Assembly: GCA_041742075.1 (NCBI GenBank)
Contig: JBGSJJ010000005.1
Location: 17,648 to 81,647 of the forward strand
Length of the DNA: 64,000 nt
Direction: 5' to 3'
Source: Minisyncoccia bacterium
GTDB taxonomy: Bacteria > Patescibacteriota > Minisyncoccia > Phycocordibacterales > UBA918
The notes under the pieces were generated by a model, which had not been told where the DNA came from, did not search any database, and worked only from the letters and a program-made list of their open reading frames with translations. A program made the translations under genes and the position numbers. Shown one piece after another: positions 39,452 to 60,044 of the stretch; positions within the stretch are counted from its first letter, which is position 1; every line of letters begins with the position of its first letter.

Positions 39452-40303
39452 ATGTTCTTATTTCGTGACCGGGTTCATTCTTTAAAATTGTGGCTTTTAC
39501 TGCTACTTACGACACTTTTTCTTTGGCCAGCGAATACCTCAGCTTCTACCGGTACACTCGCGGTGGAGCTACTCCCTCGGCCGGCGACTGGTGTCCCGGA
39601 ATACGTTAGTTTGACGCTGATGGCGACCGGTACCGTAGATATCTCTGGTTGGCGGATAGAAGATACTTTGGCCTCGCCTTCAGTGGTGTATACCTTTCCG
39701 ACGAGTACAATCCTGACTACCGGTACGCCACTTCGGGTTTGCCAGCTGGCTCTCGCAACCGTACCGACAGCTCCCTGCAACGCTCACTTTGGCGGTACGG
39801 CCAAGTGGAATAATGATGGCGATACGCTTCGTTTGTTTTCAAATACTAATGTCGAAGTACTTACGCTTCCATACGTTGGGGCAGTTATTGTGGGAGAACT
39901 GCTTGAAACTACCACCACAGTTACACTCGACCTAGTTGAAGAACCTCCACCTCCACCTCCACCTCCACCCCCGCCAGACCCAGAAGAAGAGGAAGAGGAA
40001 GATGAACCACCTCCTCCACCTCCGCCACCAGTTCCGGTTGACACACCAAAGTTTGTCACCTTCTGTAAGGCTATAAATAGCCACCTGGTGCCGTTTATAA
40101 AGATAAAACTACCGTACTCGGTAGTTATGAAAGGCAAGGTGATAAAGGATGCTGACATAGTACCCTCTGTTGGTACGAGTACCGGACAAAACCTTACCCA
40201 AAACTACCTGCTTCGCGGTGGGACGCTTACCGGCCAGCAAATTCTAGATAAAAAATGCCTCGTACTTCGCCCCAAGCCCCGCCATTTTTGGTGGTTTAGA
40301 TAA
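39452..40303 (+). CDS. Secreted lamin-tail-domain (LTD)-like protein with a poly-Pro/poly-Glu linker
   Basis: Signal peptide, then EYVSLTLMATGTVDISGWRIEDTLA...AKWNNDGDTLRLFS (LTD-like beta-sandwich). Then PPPPPPPPPPPDPEEEEEEDEPPPPPPPP. Confidence 0.45.
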   Translation: MFLFRDRVHSLKLWLLLLLTTLFLWPANTSASTGTLAVELLPRPATGVPEYVSLTLMATGTVDISGWRIEDTLASPSVVYTFPTSTILTTGTPLRVCQLALATVPTAPCNAHFGGTAKWNNDGDTLRLFSNTNVEVLTLPYVGAVIVGELLETTTTVTLDLVEEPPPPPPPPPPPDPEEEEEEDEPPPPPPPPVPVDTPKFVTFCKAINSHLVPFIKIKLPYSVVMKGKVIKDADIVPSVGTSTGQNLTQNYLLRGGTLTGQQILDKKCLVLRPKPRHFWWFR

Positions 40304-42213: not shown

Positions 42214-45200
42214 ATGAACATATTTACTTTTACCAACCTATTTACAGCGCGCTGCTTTGCCGTTGTAACATTATTAGCAGTAGTGATGAGTGCCTTTCCG
42301 GCGCCTTTTTTTGTGTCGGAAGCCGAGGCCTTCAACAACGCACCAAGACTTGAAAAAGTGAAGTTCTGTCACGCGACTCCAAATGGTGACAGTCCATTTC
42401 AACTACAAAAGAAGTATGCGTTTGAAATAGCGCTTGGGCACCATAATCATGGTGGTGATATTTTCCCTACCTACGATGGTCCAGTGATAAATAATTACGG
42501 TGGCCAGAACCTAGATACTGAATATCCAGAGTATGGAGGTATGACTGGGGCAGACATCCTTAAGGCTGACTGTGAAGTACCAGAAACAGCCAAGCTTACC
42601 CTCGTAAAGAACGTTGTTGGTGGAGAAGCTGAAGCTAAAGACTGGAATTTGTCGGCAACCGCTCTCGGAGAAAACGATAACTTTGACTTTGAAGTTGAAG
42701 GAGACGAAGAAGGGGCTGAATACCTCATAGAGGCTGGTGTAGCATATGAAATTTCTGAAGAAGGTTCTGAAGAAAACTATACGCTTACGTCACTCACTTG
42801 TGACAAAGAAGGTGCTCTTTCAAACATTTACGAAGTTACCCTTGAAGAAGGAGACGATGTAACTTGTACCTTCACGAACACGTATGTACCTCCACACGTA
42901 CCAAAGGTGACGATTGAAGCGACAAAGATCATCTGTGAAGACGAAGCACTGCTTCCAAATGATGGGTACACAAACATTGACGCCAATACTGCAACTAACT
43001 TTTTGGCTGAAAACCCATCATGTTACCTCGCGCAAGATTGGGATTTCCAATATGCGGTTGGTGGCCTCAGTAACGGTAACTCACCAGATAATGATGGTGT
43101 ACTTGATGAGAATGGTTGGGACGAAGAAAATACTGTGTCTACAGTCGGAGGAGTAGCGACAATGGTTATCGAAATGAGTGAACTTGGTCAAAACCGAACT
43201 GTTTCAGTTCGAGAAGTGATGCAAGAAGGCTACATTCCATTTACTGGTCAACAAGGGGGTCCAGTTTCAGCAGAACTCTACTGCGCAAACGATGCGGCTA
43301 ACTTTGACAACCTTGAATGGGTACCAGTTTCAGCTGACAACACCTACCACTGTGTAGCTTGGAACGTGCCTGAACTCGAAACAGTAGAAGCGTGTAAGCT
43401 CGACGAAGCAGGCAACAAGCTTGCTGGTTGGGAAATGACCATCTCAAATGGTGATGATGAAGACGATGTAACGAAGGTAACTGGAGAAAACGGCTGTACG
43501 ACCTTTGAAGTAAATCCAAATAATGGTCCTTGGACAGTCTCAGAAACAGTCAAGACTGGCTGGGATCAAGTAGAAGTAGATGCTAATTGGGGCTATATAG
43601 TAGGAGAGGAGGGATCACAGTCATGTGAATTCTTTGGAAAACGTGCAGAAGCACGTACTAATATAGTTGTTGTAGATACTGAAGAGGGCTACAACTGTAC
43701 CTTCACCAACGAAGCAGCACCAATCTGTGTAGATAAGCCAAATGGTGACTTCGCCAATGATTACCAAGACGTAGACCAGAAAAAGCGAAAGGATGGCTCA
43801 GCTATTACTAATCCTGATCGAATTGACCCAAGCAAGGTGCTTGGCGCTAATGACTGGGTAGCGAACGGCAGTACTGGTTTCTTTGCACTTGGCTTTGGTG
43901 GTTCAATCGTGGTTGAGTTTGACTCATACGTACCAAACGTAGCAGGCAACGACATCACTGTCTTTGAAGCAACTAATGGCACCTACCCAGCTGAAACAGC
44001 CTTGGTAGAAGTAAGTCAAGACGGAAGTGACTGGGAAACAGTTGGTACTGCCAACAACACAAACGCTGGCAAAATTACAAACTTTGACTTCGATTCAACT
44101 GGCCTCGCATGGATTAAGTTTGTCCGAGTTACCGATACTAGTAATTCAGCGCTTCACACGAGCGATGCAGATGGCTTTGACTTAGACGCAGTGAAGGCGA
44201 CCCAAACAGTGTGTGTTCCTCCTGAGGAAGCACCAGTTTGTTCAGTAACGATTGTGAGTGATGAAACAAACATCGTTGGCGCTATGTTCGCGAAACTTGT
44301 TACCTTTATTCACAATGACTGGGATGCGATTGTCGCAGCACCAAGTGCGTGGATTTGGGGAGATGACCCGGTAGCTGACCCAGTAAACGAGACTATCCAG
44401 ACCTTTGAAAAGACCTTTGGTTGGAATGGTCCAGTTACTTCAGCTGTCCTCACGATTGCCGCTGATAACAGCTACGCTGTAGCGGTTAACGGTGACGCAG
44501 CGGGAAGTGACGCAACTGAAAAGAACTTTATTGTGGCTGACGTGCACGACCTGTCTGGCTTTATTGACCAAGGCAACAACACGCTCGCAGTTACCGTAAA
44601 GAACTGGGCACAAGCAAATGGAACTACTAAGAGTAATCCAGCTGGTCTTAAGTACGAACTCGTTATCACTGGTTCAGATGAGAACTGTGATGTACCGTAC
44701 GAAGAAGAAGTAGAGCCAGTAGACGTTACTATCTGTAAATACGACGCTAAGGAAAACGAACTAGCTGGATGGACACTCTCACTCCTTGGCAACAAGGTAG
44801 AAGATGTGGTTGTTCCAGCTACGAATGGTACTGGTGTAGACACGACAGCTGTCTTAAGTGGCGGTAAGTCATACGTAGCCAAGGCTATGGGTACTTGGGA
44901 CAATAACCGAGGCCCGCTCAACATTGTTGACGCTGAGTACTCAACTGAAGATACTTGGGCAACTTACATGAACGGCTTTGATGGCTACGGAGAAGATATT
45001 CTCGAGCTATCAGTAAACGGTCTTCTCGGAGACTGGGGAGCATACAACAGTGCTCATACTTACCTGCAAGCGTTTACGCAAGCAACTGGTACTGCAAACG
45101 TAGCGGTACAAGATACGTTCTATGGTGATAATACCGGTTCACTCAATGTCAGTATCTTTGAAGGATACGCTGGTATTACTGACAAAAACGGTTGCGTTAC

Positions 45201-46761
45201 CTTCAGTGACGTGACTCCAGGTTCATACACTATCGGTGAAGTGATGCAAGACGGTTGGACTAATCAGTCAGGTCTTGGTGAAGTAACTGTCAGTGAAGAA
45301 AACAACGAGTTTACCGTGGTAAACAAGGAAATTGATGAGGTAGCAACAGTTATCGCACACAAAATCGTGTGTACAGACGAAACTGACCTACCAAACTGGG
45401 CGGAACTAGAAAACACAGTTGGCGCAACCACAGCACTTGACTGGGTAAATGACCCAGAGAACCCAAGTTGTGAGCTTGTACCAGACTGGAAATTCCAGTG
45501 GACACTGCCACAAGGCGATCAGTCTAACCCAGACAATGACATTTCTGATGGAAATGAACTCTATGGTGAAGCAGAAGGTTGGACAACTTTTGGACCAACC
45601 GATGCAAATGGTATGACTACACTTACCCTCACTGAAGAAGACTTAGGTGATGCTGGGTATATCTGGATTCGTGAAGTGCTTCAAGACGGACACCTACCAT
45701 TTACCTATGGTCCAGACCAGCAAAACAACAATGACGACGTGAGTGCTGAAATCTATTGTCATAAAGACGTAAAGAACTATGACAACTATGACCGAGTAGA
45801 CGGTATTGAAGTTGGTGAGACATATAACTGTGTAGCTTGGAATCATATCGAGCCATCAGAACCAGTTTGTCTCGAACCAGAGACAAACCTCATTGCAAAC
45901 GGTGGTTTTGAAGCCAACGATGTAACTGATGGCGCTGGCTGGCAAATATTTGCTTCAGGCACGCCACTTCTAGAGTGGTTGGTAAGTTGGATTAATCCAA
46001 CTGGTGCTCCAGAAGTAGCCTCACTTGAACTCCATGGTGGAGTAAATGGTTGGCTACCAGCTGAAGGTCTGCAGTACGCAGAGCTTGATTCAGATTGGCA
46101 AGGTCCAGGTGGAGGCAACGGTGAAGCGGCATCAGTTTCTATCTCACAGACTGTGCCAACACTCGCCGGTGTAGACTACAACCTCGCATGGGACTTCTCA
46201 CCACGACCTGACCAAAACGGTACTGAAAACGTACTTGAGGTATTGGTTAACAACGTACTAGTAGACACTAATACAGCAGCTGGTAACGGTACTCAGACTG
46301 TATGGACAGGGGATTCAGTTACTTTTGAAGGAACTGGTGCTCCAATGACCATTACCTTCCGTGATGCTGGTACAAATAACTCAGTCGGAACCTTTGTTGA
46401 CGATATCTCAGTAAACTGCGTTCGCGGTGAAGGAGATGGCGACGGGGAAGGTGACGGAGATGGCGATAATGACGATACACCAACTATCCCTCCAACTATA
46501 CCAACTCCAGATGATGGTGATAACACCTCAACTCGACTAGAAGGACGTAACTCAGGTGGTTCGTCTGACTCATCAGATACTGAAACTGGCCTTGGTGGTA
46601 ATCCAGAAGGAGAAGTACTTGGTGACCAAGTGTCTGTTGTGCCATTTGGTGCAGCGAACGCTGGTTTCGGAGGAACAGCATCAGACGCCAAAGCAATGGC
46701 ACTGGTGCTTGCCCTTATCCTCGTACTCGCTCTCTTCTCAGTTCGACAGAAGGTTGCGTAA
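42214..46761 (+). CDS. Giant (1515 aa) multidomain cell-surface protein/adhesin with a C-terminal tripartite sorting signal
   Basis: Signal peptide. Repeated beta-sandwich modules ending in TCTFTN / YxCVAWN motifs. A jelly-roll region. A DUF642-like domain (LIANGGFE...AELDSD...ISQTVPTLAGVDYNLAWDFSPRPD). A GDGDGEGDGDGD spacer. Then EVLGDQVSVVPFGAANAGFGGT, a hydrophobic helix and the basic tail SVRQKVA. Confidence 0.7.
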   Translation: MNIFTFTNLFTARCFAVVTLLAVVMSAFPAPFFVSEAEAFNNAPRLEKVKFCHATPNGDSPFQLQKKYAFEIALGHHNHGGDIFPTYDGPVINNYGGQNLDTEYPEYGGMTGADILKADCEVPETAKLTLVKNVVGGEAEAKDWNLSATALGENDNFDFEVEGDEEGAEYLIEAGVAYEISEEGSEENYTLTSLTCDKEGALSNIYEVTLEEGDDVTCTFTNTYVPPHVPKVTIEATKIICEDEALLPNDGYTNIDANTATNFLAENPSCYLAQDWDFQYAVGGLSNGNSPDNDGVLDENGWDEENTVSTVGGVATMVIEMSELGQNRTVSVREVMQEGYIPFTGQQGGPVSAELYCANDAANFDNLEWVPVSADNTYHCVAWNVPELETVEACKLDEAGNKLAGWEMTISNGDDEDDVTKVTGENGCTTFEVNPNNGPWTVSETVKTGWDQVEVDANWGYIVGEEGSQSCEFFGKRAEARTNIVVVDTEEGYNCTFTNEAAPICVDKPNGDFANDYQDVDQKKRKDGSAITNPDRIDPSKVLGANDWVANGSTGFFALGFGGSIVVEFDSYVPNVAGNDITVFEATNGTYPAETALVEVSQDGSDWETVGTANNTNAGKITNFDFDSTGLAWIKFVRVTDTSNSALHTSDADGFDLDAVKATQTVCVPPEEAPVCSVTIVSDETNIVGAMFAKLVTFIHNDWDAIVAAPSAWIWGDDPVADPVNETIQTFEKTFGWNGPVTSAVLTIAADNSYAVAVNGDAAGSDATEKNFIVADVHDLSGFIDQGNNTLAVTVKNWAQANGTTKSNPAGLKYELVITGSDENCDVPYEEEVEPVDVTICKYDAKENELAGWTLSLLGNKVEDVVVPATNGTGVDTTAVLSGGKSYVAKAMGTWDNNRGPLNIVDAEYSTEDTWATYMNGFDGYGEDILELSVNGLLGDWGAYNSAHTYLQAFTQATGTANVAVQDTFYGDNTGSLNVSIFEGYAGITDKNGCVTFSDVTPGSYTIGEVMQDGWTNQSGLGEVTVSEENNEFTVVNKEIDEVATVIAHKIVCTDETDLPNWAELENTVGATTALDWVNDPENPSCELVPDWKFQWTLPQGDQSNPDNDISDGNELYGEAEGWTTFGPTDANGMTTLTLTEEDLGDAGYIWIREVLQDGHLPFTYGPDQQNNNDDVSAEIYCHKDVKNYDNYDRVDGIEVGETYNCVAWNHIEPSEPVCLEPETNLIANGGFEANDVTDGAGWQIFASGTPLLEWLVSWINPTGAPEVASLELHGGVNGWLPAEGLQYAELDSDWQGPGGGNGEAASVSISQTVPTLAGVDYNLAWDFSPRPDQNGTENVLEVLVNNVLVDTNTAAGNGTQTVWTGDSVTFEGTGAPMTITFRDAGTNNSVGTFVDDISVNCVRGEGDGDGEGDGDGDNDDTPTIPPTIPTPDDGDNTSTRLEGRNSGGSSDSSDTETGLGGNPEGEVLGDQVSVVPFGAANAGFGGTASDAKAMALVLALILVLALFSVRQKVA

Positions 46762-47054: not shown

Positions 47055-48458
47055 ATGAATACAAAACGATTAATCATGAGCCTCGGTATGCTCGCCTTTG
47101 TAGGTGCCGTGGTGGTAGGAGGAACCGGCGCGTTCTTTAGTGACCAAGAAGCGTCTGTCGGCAACGTGTTTGCCGCCGGTGACGTGGATGTTGAGATTCT
47201 AAACATTACTCATTCACCAGCTGAGCCAAACCTAGTTGGTTTTGAAGTATCTGAAGAAAGCTTCACGTTTTCTTTTGCTGACCTTAAGCCACTTGATACT
47301 GGAACTGTTACCTATACAATCCAAAATGATTCAAACCCAGCTTATGTCTGTGCCATGGTGGAAGAGACTGGAAACAATGACAACGCGACTAATGACCCGG
47401 AAGAAGACGCTGGTGATGACTCACCCGGAGTTGGTGAGGGTGAACTGGGACAATTTCTTAGTTTCAAGTTTGGTGATGAAACAGGCACCCTTGAAGCTAT
47501 CAGTGGTCTCTGGCAGACTGTTGGTGAGGTTGTTAACAATAACTCTATTCCTGCAGAAATTGACTACTGTTTCGGAGAATTTGACGGGCTAAACTGTGTG
47601 CTTGACGAAGATGCTGTGTATAACATGGCTCAGACAGATCAGCTTACAGCTGACGTGAAGTTCTACGCTGTGCAGACCCGAAACAATGAAGATTTCGACT
47701 GTTCTAGCTTGAATGAAGAGGTTGAACCAGATGTTTTAGCTAGTTATGCGACAGGTTTTGAACCAAATACATTCGCAGTTGGAAACATTAACACACAAGA
47801 TAATTGGGAAAAAACAGGTCCATTCGATGCTGCGGTTGTAAACAATCCTGCGATTGAAGGGTTGCAGTCACTTCGTATTTCAAATGCAGTTACGAGTGGC
47901 AGTTTTGGAGATCAGACCTTCTCACCTGAGCTTGCTATAGGAGCTGGGGAGACAGGAGTAGCTCCGGCAAAACGATTTGAGGCGGAATTCGAAATTTCTT
48001 CAATGCAAGTTGCTGAACAACCAGGCTTAGCGGTAACAGTTTCGCCAGACGATGGTAGTGGGTCACGAATGAGTTTCCTTCGTTTTTCAGATACACCAGC
48101 GGGAATTGATGTAACATTCTTCGATGCTACAAACCCTGGACCACTACCAACTGCGACAGCATTTAACCCGACTGTGATAGCGTCACTTGATCGAAGTATC
48201 TCTCACACTGTAAAGATGACTCTAGATTTTGTAGATGGACCTGGAAACGATATTGTTAAGGTCTACATTGATGGTGTACTTGAGCACACAGGAACTACTT
48301 GGGAAGACTATTATCGATTTGATTCAGAGCAATCAGGAAATGGAAATACTCTGTTTGCTGTTGATTCACTTCTATTCCGAACTTCAGGTACAGCAGCTCC
48401 AGCCACCTCTGGTGCAGGTTACTTGTTTGACACTTTAGTACTTACAACTAGTAACTAA
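47055..48458 (+). CDS. TasA/CalY/camelysin-family (peptidase M73-like) secreted protein with a SipW-cognate signal peptide and a C-terminal jelly-roll extension
   Basis: N-terminus ..VVVGGTGAFFSDQEASVGNVFAAGDVDVEI (SipW-cognate class). F.FADLKPLDTG..IQN and FYAVQTRNNEDF match camelysin core motifs. About 250 aa of extra C-terminal domain. Confidence 0.65.
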   Translation: MNTKRLIMSLGMLAFVGAVVVGGTGAFFSDQEASVGNVFAAGDVDVEILNITHSPAEPNLVGFEVSEESFTFSFADLKPLDTGTVTYTIQNDSNPAYVCAMVEETGNNDNATNDPEEDAGDDSPGVGEGELGQFLSFKFGDETGTLEAISGLWQTVGEVVNNNSIPAEIDYCFGEFDGLNCVLDEDAVYNMAQTDQLTADVKFYAVQTRNNEDFDCSSLNEEVEPDVLASYATGFEPNTFAVGNINTQDNWEKTGPFDAAVVNNPAIEGLQSLRISNAVTSGSFGDQTFSPELAIGAGETGVAPAKRFEAEFEISSMQVAEQPGLAVTVSPDDGSGSRMSFLRFSDTPAGIDVTFFDATNPGPLPTATAFNPTVIASLDRSISHTVKMTLDFVDGPGNDIVKVYIDGVLEHTGTTWEDYYRFDSEQSGNGNTLFAVDSLLFRTSGTAAPATSGAGYLFDTLVLTTSN

Positions 48459-48578
48459 CGAAATGTAGGGGTTGCATAATTTAGTCTTGACGAAAGTTAC
48501 TTCACACTTGAGAGGAGTAACTGGGTCAAGGCTTAAGTAATGCCTGATGAAAATTAGTTACTAATTATAACGAACGAT

Positions 48579-49883
48579 ATGAAACGAATTATTGGAAGTA
48601 GTGTGATGCTCTTGGCTGTTTTGGCCATTATAGTGGGTGGTACTGGTGCGTTTTTCAGTGATGAAGAGGTTTCAACTGGAAACGTGTTTACCGCTGGTGC
48701 TATCGACCTCACGGTAGACCAAGCGGAAGCCAGCTATAACGGCGAAAGTTGTGTAAACAACTGTGTCGCGAGTGGAAATGAACTCATTATTAATGGTGGT
48801 TTTGAAGACCCTGTGTTGAATAATCCAAACTACCAGATGTTTCCAACCGGTATCCTTGGTTGGAGTGTTGAGTCTGGGGCTGGTATTGAAGTTCAGCGAA
48901 ACGCAGCTGGTGCACCACATAGTGGAGCACAGCATGTTGAACTCGATAGTGATAACTCAACCACGATGTTCCAGACTCTTACCACAGTGGCCGGACAAAA
49001 GTACCGACTGTCATTTTGGCACTCACCACGACCGAATCGTCCCAACAACGACAACGTGATTGGTTATGAGGTGCAGGTGGTAAGTGGTGCAACCACTATT
49101 ATTGATGGTGTTGTTGGTGTTAATAACGCCGGTGGCAATACTACGGGCAATACTGTGTGGACACAGTACACGTACGACTTTATTGCAACTGATACTTCTA
49201 CCAAAATCATCTTTAGTGACCAAGGGACTGTTTTGAGTAACACGTACGGCGGATACCTCGACGATGTATCAGTTAAAACAATTACCTGTTCAGTTAGCAC
49301 CTACGCTGATACTCAGGGTGGATTCTGTGAACTTTGGGAGGCGACTGACCTCACGACCCAGAAGTTCTTTAATTTCTCTGATGTGAAGCCACAAGACTCT
49401 GGAACCAACCTTATTTCTCTCCACGTTGAAAACAACGAAGCCTACATGTGTCTCACTGTGGCTAACCAGGAAGATAATGAAAACCTAACTAATGATCCTG
49501 AACTTGAAGCAGGTGATGTACTCCCAGCTGGCGAGCTGTCTGAACACCTGATGGTAGCTGGTTGGTATAGTGACGAAAATGGTGCCAATCTCTCACCAAT
49601 GTTTGGTCCAACGTACATGAATGACCTTGAAGACATTACGTTTGCTGACAGTGACTCGACCGAAGACCCGATTGAGCCCGGCGCGACAAAGTATGTAAAC
49701 CTGGCGTGGTGTCTTGGTACGCTTACGGTTACCGGTAACACCTTTACCTGTGACGGTGATGTACCAAACATCAATCGAACTCAGACCGACTCTCTTTTAG
49801 CTGACCTTCAGTTCTACGCGGTCCAAACCCGAAACAACGAGGAATTCTCTTGCGAAGCGGTTGAAGAAACCCCAGATCTCTAA
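48579..49883 (+). CDS. TasA/camelysin-family protein with a SipW-cognate signal peptide and an inserted DUF642-like domain
   Basis: N-terminus ..IIVGGTGAFFSDEEVSTGNVFTAGAIDLTVD. Inserted LIINGGFEDP...VELDSD...FQTLTTVAGQKYRLSFWHSPRPN. Then F.FSDVKPQDSG and FYAVQTRNNEEF. Confidence 0.65.
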   Translation: MKRIIGSSVMLLAVLAIIVGGTGAFFSDEEVSTGNVFTAGAIDLTVDQAEASYNGESCVNNCVASGNELIINGGFEDPVLNNPNYQMFPTGILGWSVESGAGIEVQRNAAGAPHSGAQHVELDSDNSTTMFQTLTTVAGQKYRLSFWHSPRPNRPNNDNVIGYEVQVVSGATTIIDGVVGVNNAGGNTTGNTVWTQYTYDFIATDTSTKIIFSDQGTVLSNTYGGYLDDVSVKTITCSVSTYADTQGGFCELWEATDLTTQKFFNFSDVKPQDSGTNLISLHVENNEAYMCLTVANQEDNENLTNDPELEAGDVLPAGELSEHLMVAGWYSDENGANLSPMFGPTYMNDLEDITFADSDSTEDPIEPGATKYVNLAWCLGTLTVTGNTFTCDGDVPNINRTQTDSLLADLQFYAVQTRNNEEFSCEAVEETPDL

Positions 49884-49961
49884 GGAACTGGTAGTCTAAC
49901 TCTGTGCGGGCAAACACCATTTGCTCGCACTCCTTAGGCTAGCAGGGTCTATTCGTACATT

Positions 49962-50486
49962 ATGCAAACACTTTTAAAACTCGGCTACTATCTACTGGCA
50001 CTGTCTGTGCTGGTCTTCGGTATGCTTTTAGTTTTGATTCAGACACAGGTTCTGTCGGGATATGAAGTGCGGATTGTGCAGTCAGGCTCAATGGAGCCGG
50101 CGCTTACTACTGGGAGTGTGGTACTGATACGGGAGCAAGCGAGCTATCTTGTGGGCGATATCATCACCTACGGTGATGAGCGTTCTGGCAGTCTACCAAC
50201 CACGCACCGTATCGTGGCTGACCAACTACAGGAAGGAAAGATTGCCTTTACTACCAAAGGTGATGCAAACGATAGTGAAGACCAGTCAGTTACGAGCCTT
50301 GAGTCTGTGCGCGGTAAAGTGATTTTAGACATACCATATCTCGGATATTTGCTCGATTTTGCCAGACAACCACTCGGGTTTGCGCTCCTTATCGGTGTGC
50401 CAGCCGGGCTGATTGTGTTTGAAGAAGTTGGGTCAATTTGGTCAGCGGTACGAAATCGTAAAGAAGACGAAATAGAAAAAGTATGA
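49962..50486 (+). CDS. sipW: Signal peptidase I, SipW type (S26B, eukaryotic/archaeal-like)
   Basis: TM helix, then VQSGSMEPAL (catalytic Ser) and GDIITY..., the length and motif order of SipW. ATGA overlap with the next gene. Confidence 0.8.
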   Translation: MQTLLKLGYYLLALSVLVFGMLLVLIQTQVLSGYEVRIVQSGSMEPALTTGSVVLIREQASYLVGDIITYGDERSGSLPTTHRIVADQLQEGKIAFTTKGDANDSEDQSVTSLESVRGKVILDIPYLGYLLDFARQPLGFALLIGVPAGLIVFEEVGSIWSAVRNRKEDEIEKV

Positions 50487-51328
50487 GGTATCAACCACTA
50501 CAACAAGTATGGCAAAAATCCATCACACTGATGGCGATTCTGGCTGTACTTGGTGTACCAGTGACGACGGAGAGCTTTTTCACGAACCTTGAGACGTCAA
50601 CTGCTCAGGGTTTTGTCGCGACTGAACTGATTCTTGAAACACCTGCACCTATCGCTCCAGTCACCGTTGGTCCGGGGGTGTCGCTTAGTGAAGTAAGGAT
50701 AGTTCCAATTCTCACCACTGAAGCCAGTACTGAGTCATTTTTTGAACTGACTAGTCAAGCAGTCAGTAGTGACGGTCTCTTTTGTGATGCGCTTAAGCTC
50801 AGCGCTTCATGGGAAGCTTTTTCAGTCAGTAGCCACCCAGACACTCTTGATTCGGCCAGTTTGACTGACTATGGTGACTGGCAACTGACGCTAGACTACG
50901 ACGTAACCCAACATGACTTCGAAACGGGGGCTACCTGCACTATTACGCTTTCGGTTGAAGCCTGGCAAGCCAGTATGTCGCAAGAAACCGCTGGGTATCG
51001 CGACACGACCGAGGTAGAACTTGTCGTGACCGCTGACATGTCGCTCGTGGATTCTTTGCATACTCTCGGTGCTCGCGCTTCGGTCGCTGGACTTCCACTG
51101 ACTCAGCTGAGTATCTTGCTTGATGAACCAGAAATAGTTGAAGTTGAGCCAGTTGAGGCGGGTATTCTAGAGCCAACAGTAGTTGAATCGCCAATTGTGG
51201 AGGAACCAGTCGAGCCTGCTCATGAAGACCTGCCGGAAGTAGAGGAAGTTGATGCACAGCCTGAGGAAGAAGTACCAGAAGCTGAAGCACCACCTGAACC
51301 AGAGCCTACACCTGAAGAAACATCATGA
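50483..51328 (+). CDS. TapA-like secreted acidic protein with a SipW-cognate-like N-terminus
   Basis: TM segment, then TTESFFTNLETSTAQGFVATELIL (FF[ST][DN].E.S...F.A..L.L pattern). C-terminal E/P-rich acidic tail. Translationally coupled to sipW and to the next gene. Confidence 0.4.
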   Translation: MRYQPLQQVWQKSITLMAILAVLGVPVTTESFFTNLETSTAQGFVATELILETPAPIAPVTVGPGVSLSEVRIVPILTTEASTESFFELTSQAVSSDGLFCDALKLSASWEAFSVSSHPDTLDSASLTDYGDWQLTLDYDVTQHDFETGATCTITLSVEAWQASMSQETAGYRDTTEVELVVTADMSLVDSLHTLGARASVAGLPLTQLSILLDEPEIVEVEPVEAGILEPTVVESPIVEEPVEPAHEDLPEVEEVDAQPEEEVPEAEAPPEPEPTPEETS

Positions 51329-52380
51329 TAACTACTCTTAAAACAACCTGGGGAGGACTTTTCTGTGGGTTATTGCTATGGCTTATGCTTCCTGTAAGTG
51401 CGCTCGCGGCCGACTTGGCAGTCGTGTTTGAAGCGACGCCACTTTTTTCGAGCGCCAACATTGTACCCGGTGATAGTGTGAGTCGGACTATCGAAGTAAG
51501 TAATACCGGTACCGAAACGGAAGCTCTACTTCTGTCAGTGGCAAACACTTTCAGTAGTGGGTTGAGTGAGGTGATGTTACTTACGGTAACAAGTGGAAGT
51601 GATAGCTTTTTTGAGGGTACCTTTGTGGAGTTTTTTACCGCTACCCCGGTACCCCTGGGCGATATAGCTGATAGTTCTAGTCGTACCTACACCCTCACGG
51701 CTTCATTGCCAAGTGGGATAGGTAACGAATACCAGCTCGAAACGCTCGGCTTTGACCTCGTGATTGGTTTTGAAGGAGGTGAAACGGTGACGGATGGAGA
51801 GCCAGAAAGAAGTAGTGGTGGAGGCGGCGGAGGTGGTAGTTTTGACCTGTTTAATGAACGAGTAGTGGCGGTAGAACCAAGTACAGGAAGCGCGACAGTG
51901 ACGTGGAATACGAATCGGAACAGTTCCTCATATCTGATTTGTGGCAACCTTGAGGACGGACCGTTTTCCCTTAGTACCAACCCTCCGCTTTTTGGATACG
52001 TGTTTAGTGTGCCAGAAGAAGATACCGATACCGTCTCACACAGTATGACGCTGACTGATTTGGCGCTTGGTAGCTATGAGTGTCGGCCGGCTAGTCGAGA
52101 GGAATCAATTGATGATTTTACCGTAGGGCGAGTCGTAGAGTTTGACTTCACAAGCAATTTTGTCCCGGTTGGTTCAGTCTTAGGGGTCGGAACGACCTCG
52201 GGTGTGGATGTAGTACCTATGCCTGACGTTAAGGGAGCACAAGTATCCCTCTTACCTGATGGTGGACTTAACCTTGGTTTTGGCTACGTACCATATCGCA
52301 CACTGGTTCCGGTCGGTGTGGGCCTACTCTTAGTAGTGATTCTTTTAGTCTACTTACGTCGTTTCGTCAGAAGGAGCTAG
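51325..52380 (+). CDS. Membrane-anchored camelysin/TasA-like plus FN3-like protein with a C-terminal hydrophobic/basic anchor
   Basis: Sec signal (SALAADL). LFSSANIVPGDSVSRTIEVSNTG (camelysin NxKPGD-like). Gly-rich linker. FN3-like EPSTGSATVTWNTN. C-terminus ..LVPVGVGLLLVVILLVYLRRFVRRS. Confidence 0.4.
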   Translation: MITTLKTTWGGLFCGLLLWLMLPVSALAADLAVVFEATPLFSSANIVPGDSVSRTIEVSNTGTETEALLLSVANTFSSGLSEVMLLTVTSGSDSFFEGTFVEFFTATPVPLGDIADSSSRTYTLTASLPSGIGNEYQLETLGFDLVIGFEGGETVTDGEPERSSGGGGGGGSFDLFNERVVAVEPSTGSATVTWNTNRNSSSYLICGNLEDGPFSLSTNPPLFGYVFSVPEEDTDTVSHSMTLTDLALGSYECRPASREESIDDFTVGRVVEFDFTSNFVPVGSVLGVGTTSGVDVVPMPDVKGAQVSLLPDGGLNLGFGYVPYRTLVPVGVGLLLVVILLVYLRRFVRRS

Positions 52381-52533: not shown

Positions 52534-54108
52534 ATGAATTATAAAATAGTAGAACAAACTGCCAAGAACACCCTCGTGATTTTGGCAACCCTCGCACTCC
52601 TTACTAGTGCGTTCCCGGCGTCTTTAGCGTCAGCTCAAGTTGTTTTAGACGAACCAGAGTGTTTAATTGAAACACCAAACTTGATTGATAATGGTGGTTT
52701 TGAAGACCCTAATGTCACTGATGCAGCAGGTTGGGACATTTTTGACGAATCAGAAACAAACTGGAATGTAGAATGGATAAATGGTGGTGAAAGTGCTCCA
52801 GATCCAGAACTTGAAATCCATAAGGGCTCTGTATTTGGTTGGGGAGTAGAAGAAGGTGAGCAGTATGCTGAACTTGATAGTGACTTTGACGGTCCAGCTG
52901 GTTCAATCCAAGATGAACCAGCTTCACTTGAAATCTCTCAGAAAGTAGCAGTTGAAGAAGGAGCAACGTATAAGTTGTCATGGCTTTTCTCAGCTCGGCC
53001 AGATACTGGAGAAAGTGATAATGAACTAAATGTAGAAGTTGCACTTGGCGATGGAAATGTAAATACAACCAATAGTGCAAATGGAGGTTCTGATACAGAT
53101 TGGACGGCTGATTATCTTGTTTTTGAAGCAGATACAGAGAACATCGTCGTTTCATTCACTGATGAAGGAACACCAAACTCTCGCGGAACATTCCTCGATG
53201 GTGTGTCGCTTTGTAAGGTAGCAGAACCAGAAACTTCAACTGTAGACTTAACTGTCTGTAAGCTTGATACGCAAGAAGCAGGAGTAGAAGGTTGGGAATT
53301 TGAAGTTACCAACGATTCTGACTCAGAAGGTGGTTCATTTATTGTGACGACTGGTGAAGACGGGTGTGTTACGACACAAGTAGATCCAGAATTTGGTCCA
53401 TGGTATGTGTATGAAGTTGAACAGGAAGGATGGGTGTATGTAAATCATAGTGCTGATTTTGGTGAGGCGATTGATGTGCAGGGGAACAATGCCTGTCGAT
53501 TCTTCAATCGAGAAATAATCGATGAACAACTAACTACTAGATTAGTTAAGGTACTAGATACTGCTCCAGAGCTAAACTGCACGTTTGTAAATGAGCGCGA
53601 GCCAGAAGAAGGGAATGATGACCTTACCTGTTCACTTACAACAAGCGAAGACTCAGTCAGTAGTGGCGAAGAATTTACCCTTACTTGGGAGACTACAAAT
53701 GCTTCAAACGTATCAATCACTAACTTAGGCGATGTAGCGGTAGATGGTTCAGCTGAAACTACAATCGATACTGACACAACCTTTACACTTATCGCTAGCC
53801 GTTTTGTTGGAGAAGAAGAGACTGAAGAAACTGTACAATGTAGTGTAGAAGTCGACCGTCAATCAGGCGGCGGAGGTGGGGGAACACGAGTTAATCGTGA
53901 CGAACCAGAAGAAGATGAGGAGCCAGAGCCTGAAGTCTTGGGTGACAGTACTTCAATTCCACAAGGCGTAGTACTCGGTGACCAAATTTCAGCCGTACCA
54001 CTTGGTGCAGCTTCAACGGGAGCTGGTGGAACTTCACCAGTAGCACCAGTACAGCCGTATCTCGCTGCTTTGGCTATCAATGCAGTTCGAGTTGGAAAAG
54101 TGAAATAA
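52534..54108 (+). CDS. Secreted DUF642-like-domain surface protein with the same C-terminal sorting signal as the giant adhesin
   Basis: Signal peptide. LIDNGGFEDP...AELDSD...ISQKVAVEEGATYKLSWLFSARPD. Beta-sandwich repeats. Then VVLGDQISAVPLGAASTGAGGT, a hydrophobic stretch and RVGKVK. Confidence 0.6.
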   Translation: MNYKIVEQTAKNTLVILATLALLTSAFPASLASAQVVLDEPECLIETPNLIDNGGFEDPNVTDAAGWDIFDESETNWNVEWINGGESAPDPELEIHKGSVFGWGVEEGEQYAELDSDFDGPAGSIQDEPASLEISQKVAVEEGATYKLSWLFSARPDTGESDNELNVEVALGDGNVNTTNSANGGSDTDWTADYLVFEADTENIVVSFTDEGTPNSRGTFLDGVSLCKVAEPETSTVDLTVCKLDTQEAGVEGWEFEVTNDSDSEGGSFIVTTGEDGCVTTQVDPEFGPWYVYEVEQEGWVYVNHSADFGEAIDVQGNNACRFFNREIIDEQLTTRLVKVLDTAPELNCTFVNEREPEEGNDDLTCSLTTSEDSVSSGEEFTLTWETTNASNVSITNLGDVAVDGSAETTIDTDTTFTLIASRFVGEEETEETVQCSVEVDRQSGGGGGGTRVNRDEPEEDEEPEPEVLGDSTSIPQGVVLGDQISAVPLGAASTGAGGTSPVAPVQPYLAALAINAVRVGKVK

Positions 54109-54214: not shown

Positions 54215-55213
54215 ATGAATACAGTTGCTACAAGTATTACTCCTGTTTTTTCTCACGAAACAGCCGGCAAGATTATGGCTACTCAGGTGCCGGTATTTTT
54301 AGTTTCGGAATCGCTCTCACACGTAGAAGAAGTTTTACGTAAGGATGCGCTTACGTTCAAAACAATCAACTATATTTACTTTGTTGATGAGGCCAGAAAG
54401 CTGGTTGGCGTGCTCTCAATTAAAGAGTTGCTATGCTGTAGTGACACGTATACGGTAGAGCAAATAACTACTAAAAAAATTTTTAGTGTTACCGCTGATA
54501 CCGACCAAGAACATATTGCGTTTCTCGCCCTGAAGCATAGTATCAAGGCGGTGCCTGTAGTTGATGATTCTGGTGTGTTTCTTGGAGTAGTGTCTTCAGA
54601 TACCATTCTTTCCATTCTTCATAGTGAGTCAATTGAAGACGCCCTGCATCATACGGGAACAGTGATTTTTGAAGACCCACTCGCGAGTCTCCGAACTGGT
54701 TCGGCTTGGCTTCACTTTAAGAAGCGAATCCCGTGGCTCATTATGGGCTTGGGTGGAGGAATTGGAGCCGCACTCGTCATTGAGGCCTTTGAGTCAACCC
54801 TAGAACAATTACTTATTTTGGCTACGTTTATTCCGCTTGTTGTCTATATGGCTGATGCGGTTGGCTCTCAGTCACAGACCATTTTTATTCGTTCACTCGC
54901 TCTCCCCGACACGCTGAGTATACGAGGCTATATCTTCCGAGAGCTAAAAGTAACTGCCATGATTGCCCTGTCACTCAGCGCTATTATGTTTATCGTGCTA
55001 TCGCTTTGGTTTGCATCATTTTTGGTAGGGACTATTGTCGCACTGACTATTTTATGTGGCGTGAGTGTGTCTGTGCTGATTGCGATGACCTTGCCGTATA
55101 CGTTTAAAAAGTTTAACTTTGACCCAGCACTTGCCAGTGGTCCTTTTGCAACGGTACTGTGTGACACTTCAAGCCTCCTCATCTATTTTTGTATTGCTAG
55201 TCTGATCTTATAG
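54215..55213 (+). CDS. MgtE-like divalent cation transporter, short form lacking the N-domain (CBS pair plus TM domain)
   Basis: CBS-pair region, then the MgtE TM signature FIPLVVYMADAVGSQSQTIFIRSL and 5 TM helices. Paralog of the gene at 233-1495. Confidence 0.75.
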   Translation: MNTVATSITPVFSHETAGKIMATQVPVFLVSESLSHVEEVLRKDALTFKTINYIYFVDEARKLVGVLSIKELLCCSDTYTVEQITTKKIFSVTADTDQEHIAFLALKHSIKAVPVVDDSGVFLGVVSSDTILSILHSESIEDALHHTGTVIFEDPLASLRTGSAWLHFKKRIPWLIMGLGGGIGAALVIEAFESTLEQLLILATFIPLVVYMADAVGSQSQTIFIRSLALPDTLSIRGYIFRELKVTAMIALSLSAIMFIVLSLWFASFLVGTIVALTILCGVSVSVLIAMTLPYTFKKFNFDPALASGPFATVLCDTSSLLIYFCIASLIL

Positions 55214-55267: not shown

Positions 55268-55945
55268 ATGAAGAAAGCGGGTATACAGACCGAAGGGAAC
55301 CAGAGTACACGATGGCTGTTTGCTAAACTAGCAGTATTTTTGGTAGTTTTTCTCGCGCTAATGCTTTTTTTGAAAGTCTCTTCAACTGAGGCACCGGCAC
55401 CAGATACCATAGAAGAGTCGGTTACCGCAAGTACAACAATTCAAGGTACGATTCTTTCAGAATCGAGTCCTAACCGACTCCGTATTCCGAAGGTTAATAT
55501 TGATACTACTTTTGAAAAAGCACTCGGACTCAATGAAGACAAAACGGTTGAAGTACCCGTTGGGTATGAGCAGGTTGGGTGGTACAAGTTTGGGCCGACG
55601 CCAGGGGAGCTTGGGCCGGCAGTGATTCTTGGTCATGTTGATTCAGTTGATGGTCCGGCGGTTTTTTGGTCACTGGGGCAACTGACTGCTGGCGACGAGA
55701 TTTTTATTGACCGTGAGGACGGTAGTACAGCTCGTTTTGTGGTGACTGAACTTAAAAAAGTATCGCAAAATGATTTCCCGAGTCAAGTAGTGTATGGCGA
55801 CATTGATCACGCTGGACTCAGACTCATTACGTGTAGTGGAACGTTTAATCGGGGTGCCCAGCGCTATAGCCATAACCTAATTGTGTTTGCCAAGCTCGCT
55901 GAGGAACCAACCGGCGAAGAAGAAACCGAAGCAGAAACTCTCTAG
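55268..55945 (+). CDS. Sortase (class E/F-like transpeptidase)
   Basis: N-terminal TM anchor. VILGHVDS (catalytic His), LRLITCSG (TLxTC Cys), downstream Arg in TFNRG. 225 aa. Confidence 0.8.
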   Translation: MKKAGIQTEGNQSTRWLFAKLAVFLVVFLALMLFLKVSSTEAPAPDTIEESVTASTTIQGTILSESSPNRLRIPKVNIDTTFEKALGLNEDKTVEVPVGYEQVGWYKFGPTPGELGPAVILGHVDSVDGPAVFWSLGQLTAGDEIFIDREDGSTARFVVTELKKVSQNDFPSQVVYGDIDHAGLRLITCSGTFNRGAQRYSHNLIVFAKLAEEPTGEEETEAETL

Positions 55946-57464: not shown

Positions 57465-57923
57465 TTGCTAATGAAACAAACCCAGTCAGACTTAAAAGTG
57501 GTGGAGGTTCACCAGGCAGACGTTTCGACGACTGAACGGCAAAGAGTTGCGCTATTTTCGTCGCGTCCGCAAGCTGGCTTTCCATCACCGGGGGATGATC
57601 AAGTGGAGCGTGTGCTTGATATCAATGACTTAGTGGTAAAACACCCCGCCAGCACGTTCTTTGTCCGGGTGTCGGGTGATTCTATGGAGGGAGCAGGTAT
57701 ATTTCATAACGACGTACTGGTGGTTGATCGTGCTATAGAGCACAGTGATGGAAAAATAGTGGTGGCAGCCGTGAATGGAGAGCTGGTGGTCAAACGGCTT
57801 TCGAGCCAGCGTGGTATTCTGATGCTTCTGTCTGAAAACCCTTCATATGCTCCGATTAAGGTAAGTGAAGAAGAGGAATGTTTTGTGTGGGGTGTAGTAG
57901 TTGGGAGTGTCCGACAGTTTTAG
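57465..57923 (+). CDS. umuD: UmuD-like S24 LexA-family autopeptidase (translesion synthesis accessory subunit)
   Basis: GFPSPGDD..., the catalytic Ser region VSGDSMEGAGI, and Lys in GELVVKRL. 152 aa with no N-terminal HTH, so UmuD rather than LexA. Confidence 0.75.
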   Translation: MLMKQTQSDLKVVEVHQADVSTTERQRVALFSSRPQAGFPSPGDDQVERVLDINDLVVKHPASTFFVRVSGDSMEGAGIFHNDVLVVDRAIEHSDGKIVVAAVNGELVVKRLSSQRGILMLLSENPSYAPIKVSEEEECFVWGVVVGSVRQF

Positions 57924-60017: not shown

Positions 60018-60044
60018 GTCATACTACTTGTCAATGCAACCTGT

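What the first reader, a model, noticed from the sequence alone, without database searches (positions are those of the whole stretch)
46560..46761. Novel shared C-terminal sorting signal (E)VLGDQ[VI]S[VA]VP[FL]GAA..G.GGT plus hydrophobic helix plus basic tail on two surface proteins, with no LPXTG
The giant adhesin ends ..EVLGDQVSVVPFGAANAGFGGTASDAKAM-ALVLALILVLALF-SVRQKVA. The DUF642-like protein (its C-terminal motif is around 53955-54108) ends ..VVLGDQISAVPLGAASTGAGGTSPVAPVQP-YLAALAINAV-RVGKVK. About 22 residues are near-identical, and the similarity is also visible at the nucleotide level. Both follow the tripartite logic of sortase or exosortase substrates, but with a VP[FL]GAA core in place of LPXTG or PEP. 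A sortase gene sits 1.2 kb downstream (55268-55945). This could be a dedicated sortase with a non-canonical recognition motif. Related but looser endings occur on 51325-52380 (LVPVG..RRFVRRS) and on 62817-63896 (ILPAGG plus TM plus basic tail).
Basis: seen in the sequence. Interest (0 to 1): 0.7.

Follow-up and report, generated by a model that had tools for sequence, protein, structure and literature searches.

The report
Class F sortase sorting tail
Two surface proteins in this window end in a conserved, non-LPXTG tail that sits next to a class F sortase gene in every related locus examined, which points to the natural substrate signal of a sortase class whose function is still unknown.

Summary
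An HMM built only from tails of other organisms scores them 59 and 58 bits; no other window ORF except one degenerate copy (51325-52380) matches. The tail is not a private duplication. A profile search found 348 protein clusters with it, always at the C-terminus. Consensus: P.G.VLG..[TV]S..P.GA[PA].[TA]G.GGT, then about 25 residues ending in K/R. Named sources are Patescibacteria (Kaiserbacteria, Saccharibacteria, Paceibacterota). In 11 of 11 independent loci the tail gene adjoins a class F sortase. Nine of ten actinobacterial class F sortase loci have an upstream secreted protein ending P.G[GA]..[TA]G.GG + TM + RRR.

The closest curated model is NCBIfam NF058571 (GVDTG sorting domain). The window tails fall below its cut-off (23 and 12 bits against 29). 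It is therefore a new variant of a known kind: the Patescibacteria form of a class-F-sortase-linked sorting signal.

The ending at 62817-63896 is unrelated. Cleavage itself is inferred, not shown.

The parts
42214..46761 (+). P1: 1515-aa secreted multidomain surface protein (SpaA-like prealbumin folds, F5/8-type C-like region, DUF642/choice-of-anchor C domain) carrying the tail
   Evidence: tail HMM built without window sequences scores 59.3 bits
42214..42330 (+). P1 N-terminal signal peptide region (MNIFTFTNLFTARCFAVVTLLAVVMSAFPAPFFVSEAEA)
   Evidence: read from the translation; coordinates
46603..46635 (+). P1 upstream conserved module PEGEVLGDQVS (family consensus P.G.VLG[EDA][QAS][TV]S)
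46636..46677 (+). P1 core motif VVPFGAANAGFGGT (family consensus [VML]P.GA[PA].[TA]G.GGT)
   Evidence: NF058571 aligns from V-P onwards, 23.0 bits
46651..46665 (+). P1 proposed LPXTG-equivalent pentapeptide AANAG; inferred scissile bond between A (46660-46662) and G (46663-46665)
   Evidence: inference from the family logo and the NF058571 register
46693..46758 (+). P1 hydrophobic segment AMALVLALILVLALFSV (46693-46743) and basic end RQKVA (46744-46758)
   Evidence: (best 15-mer KD 3.17)
52534..54108 (+). P2: 524-aa secreted DUF642/SpaA-like protein carrying the tail; paralogous to P1 in two domains (45% and 37% identity)
   Evidence: tail HMM 58.2 bits
53923..53991 (+). P2: two tandem upstream modules, PEPEVLGDSTS and PQGVVLGDQIS
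53992..54033 (+). P2 core motif AVPLGAASTGAGGT; proposed pentapeptide AASTG at 54007-54021
   Evidence: NF058571 12 bits
54055..54105 (+). P2 short, weakly hydrophobic segment PYLAALAINAV (54055-54087) and basic end RVGKVK (54088-54105)
   Evidence: (KD 1.22; family median 1.63)
51325..52380 (+). P3: 351-aa secreted protein with a degenerate copy of the motif (PDVKGAQVS-LLPDGGLNLGFG, 52222-52284), a strong TM (52303-52356) and RRFVRRS (52357-52377); doubtful substrate
   Evidence: 13.1 bits, E=0.002; no homologue in the related loci
55268..55945 (+). Class F sortase, 225 aa: N-terminal membrane anchor (55313-55378), LGHVDS with His123 (55628-55645), LITCSG with Cys189 (55823-55840), YSHNL with Asn203 in place of the usual catalytic Arg (55865-55879)
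   Evidence: NF033748 175.6 bits against cut-off 166; Pfam Sortase; invariant H, C and N in alignments; N203 aligns with Arg of a solved sortase
54215..55213 (+). MgtE-like transporter gene lying between P2 and the sortase; not part of the system (in the other loci the sortase directly follows the tail gene)

Best explanation
The tails of P1 and P2 are C-terminal cell-surface sorting signals for the class F sortase encoded at 55268-55945.

Proposed course, all steps inferred:
1. The proteins are exported through their N-terminal signal peptides.
2. They are held at the membrane by the C-terminal hydrophobic stretch and basic end.
3. The membrane-anchored sortase recognises the extended motif P.G.VLG..[TV]S..P.GA[PA].[TA]G.GGT.
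4. It cleaves after the T/A of A[PA]x[TA]|G (AANA|G in P1, AAST|G in P2).
5. It passes the protein, via a Cys189 thioester, to an amine acceptor, most likely the peptidoglycan precursor.

Shown here: the motif, its strict C-terminal position, its breadth, its adjacency to class F sortases in two phyla, and its relation to the curated GVDTG sorting domain.
For: 1. Architecture. In 152 tails the T/A lies 23-36 residues (median 29) from the C-terminus. G+1 and G+3 are 100% conserved, G+4 96%, P-6 98%, G-4 98% and A-3 96%. 99% have at least 2 K/R in the last 10 residues. 110 of 119 full-length carriers have an N-terminal hydrophobic signal.

2. Breadth. 348 clusters at 50% identity match at E<=1e-3, 39 of them at E<=1e-10. 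Of the 150 best matches listed, all but one lie at the C-terminus.

3. Synteny. The tail gene is next to a sortase in all 11 non-redundant loci (window, L003, L005, L006, L007, L008, L009, L011, L013, L016, L017). L011 has three tail genes around one sortase. The nine of these sortases that were scanned all pass the class F cut-off, at 168-185 bits against 166. The sortases of L016 and L017 carry Pfam Sortase hits and align with the class F set, but were not scanned against NF033748.

4. Same pairing in Actinobacteria. In 9 of 10 class F sortase loci the gene directly upstream encodes a secreted protein ending P.G[GA]..[TA]G.GG + TM + RRR. Examples: Rhodococcus IPKGHPETGAGGT, Cryobacterium MPNGGVETGGGS.

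5. The curated sorting-domain model NF058571 is the best NCBIfam hit for the window tails, for 48 of 65 family tails and for all 9 actinobacterial tails. Three of the nine, and P0152, pass its cut-off.

6. Passengers are typical sortase cargo: DUF642 26, SdrD_B 24, SpaA-like 11-13 and Flg_new_2 12 of 68 proteins.

7. Homologues P0002 and L009 3025-4332 keep the EVLG linker but replace the tail with a PG_binding_1 domain, a non-covalent wall anchor.

8. The sortase keeps His and Cys. It has the Asn-for-Arg substitution reported for class F enzymes (PMC8703055, PMC6998099).
Against: - No biochemical evidence exists. Cleavage, the scissile bond and the acceptor are all inferred.
- The only characterised class F sortase (P. 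acnes) is reported to use LPXTG (PMC8225981).
- Deleting all four class F sortases of Actinoplanes missouriensis gave no phenotype (PMC13251363).
- The hydrophobic stretch of P2 (11 residues, KD 1.22), and of many family members, is weak for a membrane-spanning helix.
- The window tails are atypical: A at the P3 position (15% of the family), A at P1 in P1 (21%), and F at +2 (3%).
- Here the sortase is not directly adjacent. It lies 1.2 kb from P2 and 8.5 kb from P1.
- Whole genomes could not be scanned, so phyletic co-occurrence rests on neighbourhoods only.
Confidence: 0.75

Rival explanations
1. The tail is a sortase signal, but the recognised and cleaved element is the reader's VP[FL]GA (P at the LPXTG 'P' position, cleavage after G). 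The downstream TG.GG is only a flexible spacer.
For: P-6 (98%), G-4 (98%) and A-3 (96%) are as conserved as the downstream residues. [VML]-P-x-G-A resembles L-P-x-T-G in spacing.
Against: In P0007 and P0103 the spacing after P changes (VPAVAGASTGAGG) while [ST]TG.GG is kept. Actinobacterial tails vary at these positions (MPGNGVRAG, IPKGHPETG) yet keep [TA]G. The position after G-4 is A or G, not the invariant G expected for P1'. NF058571 is named for the downstream pentapeptide. The distance from T to the C-terminus (median 29) matches the classical T-to-end distance.
Confidence: 0.12
2. The tail is only a conserved stalk plus membrane anchor, or a wall- or S-layer-interacting linker. It is never cleaved, and the sortase neighbour acts on something else.
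For: The hydrophobic segment plus basic end would act as a tail anchor on its own. Class F sortase deletion gave no phenotype in one actinomycete (PMC13251363). The upstream P.G.VLG..TS module also occurs in proteins without the tail (P0002).
Against: A plain anchor does not need 100% conserved G+1/G+3 at a fixed distance from the end. Tight gene adjacency holds in 11/11 Patescibacteria loci and 9/10 actinobacterial loci. No other candidate substrate with LPXTG was found in any of these loci.
Confidence: 0.08
3. The signal is processed by the class F sortase, but for polymerisation into pili or fibres (the class C-like role) rather than for wall anchoring.
For: Many carriers have SpaA-like pilin-type folds. 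L011 has three tail genes around one sortase. TasA-like fibre genes with SipW lie beside the pair in the window, L005, L013 and L017.
Against: Carriers are very diverse in size (67-1690 aa) and domain content, unlike pilin sets. Most loci have a single tail gene. No pilin-motif analysis was done.
Confidence: 0.1
4. The tail belongs to a non-sortase sorting system of the GlyGly-CTERM/rhombosortase or PEP-CTERM/exosortase kind.
For: It has a Gly-rich motif just before a hydrophobic stretch and a basic end. There are weak NCBIfam hits to MprA_tail/GlyGly-CTERM and PID-CTERM (E 0.008-0.4) in single tails.
Against: No rhomboid- or exosortase-like gene appeared in the Pfam scans of the window or in the precomputed gene calls of the related loci. 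One search lists only 25 of 43 families. The consistent neighbour is a sortase.
Confidence: 0.02

Closest known systems
NCBIfam NF058571 GVDTG_CTERM (GVDTG sorting domain-containing protein)
   Same: It is the best curated model for the window tails (E=7e-5 for P1) and aligns in the same register: V-P-x-G-[GA]-x-x-T-G-x-G-G, hydrophobic stretch, basic end. Tails that pass its cut-off (Rhodococcus, Cryobacterium, A. agilis, P0152) also lie directly upstream of a class F sortase.
   Different: The window tails score 23.0 and 12.0 bits against a cut-off of 29. Only 1 of 65 Patescibacteria tails reaches it. The Patescibacteria form has A-P-N at the G-V-D positions. It also has an extra conserved upstream module (P.G.VLG..[TV]S, often in tandem) and a shorter, weaker hydrophobic stretch.
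LPXTG cell-wall sorting signal with class A sortase (TIGR01167)
   Same: Tripartite layout, a T-G dipeptide about 30 residues from the C-terminus, N-terminal signal peptide, adhesin-like passengers, cysteine transpeptidase partner.
   Different: No Leu at P4. P3 is P or A. Conservation extends about 20 residues upstream and includes G.GG downstream. The TIGR01167 model does not detect the window tails (3 of 65 family tails, at E>=0.06).
Class E sortase with LAXTG signals (Streptomyces, Corynebacterium)
   Same: The window tails have Ala at the P3 position (AASTG, AANAG), as in LAXTG.
   Different: The sortase is class F (175.6 bits), not class E (25.9 bits). P4 is Ala, not Leu. Most family members have Pro at P3.
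Propionibacterium acnes SrtF, the only characterised class F sortase
   Same: Same enzyme class by name. Reported as a housekeeping wall-anchoring enzyme (PMC8225981, PMC11231552).
   Different: Reported to recognise LPXTG. No such tail is present in any locus examined here.
Engineered S. aureus SrtA variants with APxTG specificity (F40, A1-22, cW11)
   Same: The family consensus pentapeptide is A-P-x-T-G, the motif these variants were evolved to accept (PMC8248031).
   Different: Those are laboratory variants of a class A enzyme. Here the specificity would be natural and is unproven.

Membership tests
Sortase-dependent C-terminal sorting signal (generic, LPXTG type) | Motif about 30 residues from the C-terminus, followed by a hydrophobic stretch and a positively charged end | tested here: met
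   The T/A position lies 23-36 residues (median 29) from the end in 152 tails. 99% have at least 2 K/R in the last 10 residues. P1 hydrophobic KD is 3.17; P2 is weak at 1.22.
Sortase-dependent C-terminal sorting signal (generic, LPXTG type) | LPXTG pentapeptide / match to TIGR01167 | tested here: not met
   AANAG and AASTG replace LPXTG. There is no TIGR01167 hit for the window tails, and only 3 of 65 family tails hit it, at E>=0.06.
Sortase-dependent C-terminal sorting signal (generic, LPXTG type) | N-terminal secretion signal on the carrier | tested here: met
   P1 and P2 N-termini read as signal peptides. 110 of 119 carriers have an N-terminal hydrophobic 12-mer. This is a heuristic; no SignalP was run.
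Sortase-dependent C-terminal sorting signal (generic, LPXTG type) | Cognate sortase encoded in the genome, typically nearby | tested here: met
   11/11 Patescibacteria loci and 9/10 actinobacterial loci.
Sortase-dependent C-terminal sorting signal (generic, LPXTG type) | Cleavage within the motif and transpeptidation to the wall | not testable with these tools
   Needs a peptide cleavage assay and mass spectrometry of the mature protein.
NCBIfam NF058571 GVDTG sorting domain | HMM score at or above the curated cut-off (29 bits) | tested here: not met
   P1 tail 23.0 bits, P2 tail 12.0 bits. About 1 of 65 family tails passes.
NCBIfam NF058571 GVDTG sorting domain | Same motif register and partner as bona fide members | tested here: met
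   Members that pass the cut-off (L019 30.5, L020 39.4, L024 30.5, P0152 32.3 bits) lie directly upstream of class F sortases, as the window-type tails do.
Class F sortase (NF033748) | HMM score at or above the curated cut-off (166 bits) | tested here: met
   175.6 bits; the next best class is E at 25.9 bits.
Class F sortase (NF033748) | His and Cys catalytic residues, with Asn replacing the usual Arg | tested here: met
   H123, C189 and N203 are invariant in 9 Patescibacteria and 8 actinobacterial enzymes. N203 aligns with the Arg of PDB 9m4u. The literature reports Asn for Arg in class F (PMC8703055, PMC6998099).
Class F sortase (NF033748) | Sortase beta-barrel fold | tested here: inconclusive
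   The single-sequence AlphaFold model had mean pLDDT 45.8 and is unusable. The Pfam Sortase domain hit is E=6e-22.
GlyGly-CTERM/rhombosortase or PEP-CTERM/exosortase systems | Signature motif and partner enzyme gene | tested here: not met
   Only stray weak HMM hits (E 0.008-0.4). No rhomboid- or exosortase-like family appeared in the window or locus gene tables.

The most novel reading that the evidence does not exclude
Class F sortases have had no assigned function or substrate outside one LPXTG-using enzyme. They may have their own cognate sorting signal, P-x-G-[GA]-x-x-[TA]-G-x-G-G, conserved from Actinobacteria to Patescibacteria. In Patescibacteria it would be an extended signal of about 25 residues (P.G.VLG..TS..P.GAP.TG.GGT) that is the main route for covalent display of adhesin-like proteins on these ultrasmall episymbionts. 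The enzymes would be natural APxTG-specific transpeptidases lacking the canonical catalytic Arg.
Probability: 0.55. Interest if true: 0.72.

Novelty: new variant of a known kind. Interest (0 to 1): 0.6.

Why it matters
Reviews and recent genetic work state that the function and substrates of class F sortases are unknown (PMC6998099, PMC11231552, PMC13251363).

The sortase-tail gene pairs give concrete, testable substrate candidates, both in cultivable Actinobacteria and in Patescibacteria. They supply an HMM-definable signal for predicting the covalently displayed surface proteome of CPR bacteria, whose host attachment is poorly understood.

If the enzymes really accept A-P-x-T-G they would also interest protein engineers, who had to evolve SrtA to take that motif (PMC8248031).

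Current annotation misses most of these proteins. They are labelled 'hypothetical protein' even in a closed Kaiserbacteria genome.

Tried and rejected
- A word-indexed homologue search with a 3-tail alignment found nothing. The same search with 65 tails returned only 11 short fragments. That tool suits short queries poorly.
- The single genome-contig scan, run with the sortase alone, returned only 2 loci.
No large, unbiased locus sample was therefore obtained. Co-occurrence rests on 11 + 10 neighbourhoods.
No fold search was made.
- Single-linkage clustering of passenger regions merged all 127 proteins into one component, because of shared domains and low-complexity linkers, and was uninformative. 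Pfam counts were used instead.
- Literature searches for GAPNTG, GVDTG, APxTG and class F substrates found no description of this signal.
- The idea that 62817-63896 carries a related ending was rejected.
- The idea that SipW (49962-50486) processes the tail was rejected on established knowledge of SipW-type signal peptidases rather than by a test here: they cleave N-terminal signals, and their expected substrates are the adjacent TasA/camelysin-like proteins.
Full report
**The sequence**

The window has about 45% G+C and comes from a metagenome assembly (Logan SRR28170467). One of its proteins is also recorded in NCBI on a 168-kb contig.

- P1 ends ..PEGEVLGDQVSVVPFGAANAGFGGTASDAKAMALVLALILVLALFSVRQKVA.
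- P2 ends ..PQGVVLGDQISAVPLGAASTGAGGTSPVAPVQPYLAALAINAVRVGKVK.

Both proteins have N-terminal signal peptides. They carry SpaA-like and DUF642/choice-of-anchor C domains. They are paralogous in those domains at 45% and 37% identity.

The ORF at 55268-55945 is a class F sortase. It scores 175.6 bits on NF033748, above the curated cut-off of 166. No LPXTG-type tail exists anywhere in the window.

**Not a private duplication**

Over the 23-residue core, 15 residues are identical, but only 8 of those use the same codon. DNA identity is 68%.

A homologue search with P2 returned proteins from other samples that carry the same kind of ending, for example QVLGEQVSLVPAGAPATGAGGT.. and MMPVGAPNTGAGGT...

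A profile built from six tails was run against 1.84 billion representative proteins:
- 348 proteins matched at E<=1e-3, and 39 at E<=1e-10.
- Of the 150 best matches listed, all but one lie at the extreme C-terminus.

I anchored 152 tails on the T/A position to derive a logo:
- Consensus, with percentages: P(92) x G V(95) L(91) G(96) [EDA] [QAS] [TV] S(78) x [VML] P(98) x G(98) A(96) P(84, A 15) [ND] T(78, A 21) G(100) A G(100) G(96) T [SA] P.
- The protein ends 23-36 residues (median 29) after the T/A.
- 99% of tails have at least two K/R in the last ten residues.

An HMM built from 63 tails, none from the window, scores P1 at 59.3 bits and P2 at 58.2 bits. No other window ORF and no reversed decoy reaches E<=100, apart from P3 (51325-52380) at 13.1 bits. 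The element that matches in P3 is VKGAQVSLLPDGGLNLGFG.

Source names that could be recovered are all Patescibacteria: a Saccharibacteria MAG, Kaiserbacteria (including the closed genome CP064968) and Paceibacterota.

**Link to the sortase**

I fetched the contigs that encode tail proteins, and loci found through the sortase. All 11 non-redundant loci have a sortase gene next to the tail gene, usually within 0-40 bp downstream. The loci are the window, L003, L005, L006, L007, L008, L009, L011, L013, L016 and L017. L011 has three tail genes around one sortase.

The nine sortases I scanned (the window's, plus L003, L005, L006, L007, L008, L009, L011 and L013) all pass the class F cut-off, at 168-185 bits. 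The sortases of L016 and L017 have Pfam Sortase hits and align with the others, but were not scanned against NF033748.

In the window the usual order is rluA-like gene, small gene, tail gene, sortase (as in L013 and L016). Here a TasA-like/SipW block, P3, P2 and an MgtE-like gene lie between P1 and the sortase.

**The same pairing in Actinobacteria**

A class F sortase on a 68% G+C contig (L014) is preceded by a protein ending VPVGAPATGGG + TM + RRLRRQQ.

tblastn of that sortase against PLSDB plasmids found 37 actinobacterial records. Together with L014, I inspected ten actinobacterial-type loci. In nine of them the gene directly upstream of the class F sortase encodes a secreted protein ending P-x-G-[GAH]-x-x-[TA]-G-x-G-G, then a Gly/Ala-rich TM, then RRR. 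Examples:
- Rhodococcus: IPKGHPETGAGGT
- Cryobacterium: MPNGGVETGGGS
- Arthrobacter agilis: MPSGGADTG
- Streptomyces fungicidicus: VPSGAPDTG
- Kitasatospora: LPAGGVAAGEGG
- Streptomyces spp.: PIGGVPAGGGG, PHGGIHTGGGG, MPGNGVRAGAGG

**Comparison with what is curated**

No Pfam family matches the tails. In NCBIfam the best and nearly the only hit is NF058571, 'GVDTG sorting domain-containing protein':
- P1 tail: 23.0 bits (E=7e-5). P2 tail: 12.0 bits. The cut-off is 29.
- 48 of 65 family tails match at E<=1, but only one reaches about the cut-off. That one is P0152 at 32.3 bits, and it also sits directly upstream of a sortase.
- The model is the best hit for all nine actinobacterial class-F-adjacent tails. 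Three of them pass the cut-off, at 30.5, 39.4 and 30.5 bits.
- The model's first positions align with the V-P of VPxGA. Its name-giving GVDTG therefore corresponds to AANAG in P1 and AASTG in P2.

The window tails are thus sub-threshold relatives of a curated sorting domain: a Patescibacteria form with A-P-N in place of G-V-D. This form has an additional conserved upstream module (P.G.VLG..[TV]S), often duplicated in tandem as in P2.

**Where the sortase probably cuts**

Several observations point instead to A-[PA]-x-[TA]|G:
- G+1, G+3 and G+4 are the most invariant positions.
- Variants with altered spacing after the first Pro (VPAVAGASTGAGG in P0007 and P0103) keep [ST]TG.GG.
- Actinobacterial tails vary in the first half but keep [TA]G.
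- Pro or Ala at P3 mirrors LPXTG and LAXTG.
- The distance from T to the C-terminus is the classical one.

This remains an inference.

**The enzyme**

The sortase has an N-terminal hydrophobic anchor, the motifs LGHVDS and LxTC[ST]G, and an invariant Asn (YSHNL). That Asn aligns with the catalytic Arg of a solved sortase. This matches the published note that class F enzymes carry Asn instead of Arg (PMC8703055, PMC6998099).

Structure prediction gave nothing usable.

**Passengers**

Among 68 full-length carriers, Pfam finds DUF642 (26), SdrD_B (24), CarboxypepD_reg (15), SpaA-type folds (11-13), Flg_new_2 (12), DUF4114, DUF11, TSP_3, PKD, LTD and CBM domains. This is typical Gram-positive surface cargo.

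Two homologues (P0002, and L009 3025-4332) keep the EVLG linker but end in a PG_binding_1 domain instead of the tail. This fits a wall-attachment role for this part of the protein.

**Literature**

Searches for the motif strings and for class F substrates found no description of this signal. Reviews and primary papers say:
- Class F function is unknown (PMC6998099, PMC11231552).
- The one characterised enzyme, from P. acnes, uses LPXTG (PMC8225981).
- A quadruple class F deletion in Actinoplanes had no phenotype (PMC13251363).

**Verdict**

The tail is very probably the sorting signal of the neighbouring class F sortase, but three points need correction:
- It is a divergent member of a signal type already captured in part by NCBIfam.
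- One of the two 'looser' endings is unrelated.

Limits:
- There is no biochemical evidence.
- Co-occurrence was tested only in gene neighbourhoods, not in whole genomes.
- The hydrophobic stretch of P2 and of many family members is weak.

Noticed in passing
window 47055-51328; also L005, L013, L017: Two TasA/camelysin-like secreted proteins (47055-48458 and 48579-49883; N-terminal GGTGAFFSD, weak Peptidase_M73 hit on the second), a SipW-type signal peptidase (49962-50486) and a further gene (50483-51328). The same block of several M73-like genes plus a SipW fusion lies beside the tail-gene/sortase pair in three other Patescibacteria loci.
   Followed up: partly
P0002 (homologue of P2); L009 3025-4332: The same EVLG linker is followed by a PG_binding_1 domain instead of the sorting tail: an alternative wall anchor on related passengers.
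   Followed up: partly
window 51325-52380: P3 has a degenerate copy of the motif (VKGAQVSLLPDGGLNLGFG), a strong TM and RRFVRRS, plus a Gly run (SSGGGGGGGS). It has no homologue in any fetched locus. It is unclear whether it is still a sortase substrate.
   Followed up: partly
window 56057-57391; L005 12820-13962; L011 15152-16288: A CAP-domain protein gene lies just downstream of the sortase in the window and L005, and after the third tail gene in L011. In the window protein the C-terminal part has hydrophobic segments.
   Followed up: no
window 57465-57923 and 59943-61286; L011 16894-19264: An S24 peptidase (UmuD/LexA-like) and a Y-family polymerase (IMS, IMS_C, DUF4113) form an umuDC-like pair. 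In the window a GH18 gene and a minus-strand ORF lie between them. The pair is conserved in the related contig L011.
   Followed up: no
window 58080-59417; L007, L009, L016, L013: A GH18 (chitinase-like) gene lies near the sortase. In other loci a GT2/chitin-synthase-like gene follows the sortase, directly (L007, L009, L016) or further downstream (L013), which suggests a linked surface-polysaccharide function.
   Followed up: no
L007 319-1821, L009 1360-2860, L011 2550-4048; L023, L024: An ECF-type sigma-70 gene, plus an unknown gene of about 300 aa, precedes the tail genes in three Patescibacteria loci. Sigma factor genes also flank two actinobacterial class F sortase loci.
   Followed up: no
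window 61628-62701 and 62817-63896; L011 19584-21977: A conserved gene pair (48% and 59% identity to L011). The second protein has weak WxLIP_PGBD and Fn3-like hits and ends in TM, basic loop, TM.
   Followed up: yes
window 54215-55213 and 233-1495 (-): Two MgtE-type genes. The one inserted between P2 and the sortase has CBS and MgtE domains but lacks the MgtE_N domain found in the full-length copy at 233-1495.
   Followed up: no
window 39452-40303: A secreted Lamin-tail-domain protein with a long Pro/Glu run (PPPPPPPPPPPPDPEEEEEEDEPPPPPPPP).
   Followed up: no
L014 (IMGVR_UViG_3300050821_009780, 68% G+C): A class F sortase and its VPVGAPATGGG-tailed partner lie on a 143-kb contig filed as viral in IMG/VR. 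Many actinobacterial pairs are on plasmids, so the pair may be mobile.
   Followed up: partly
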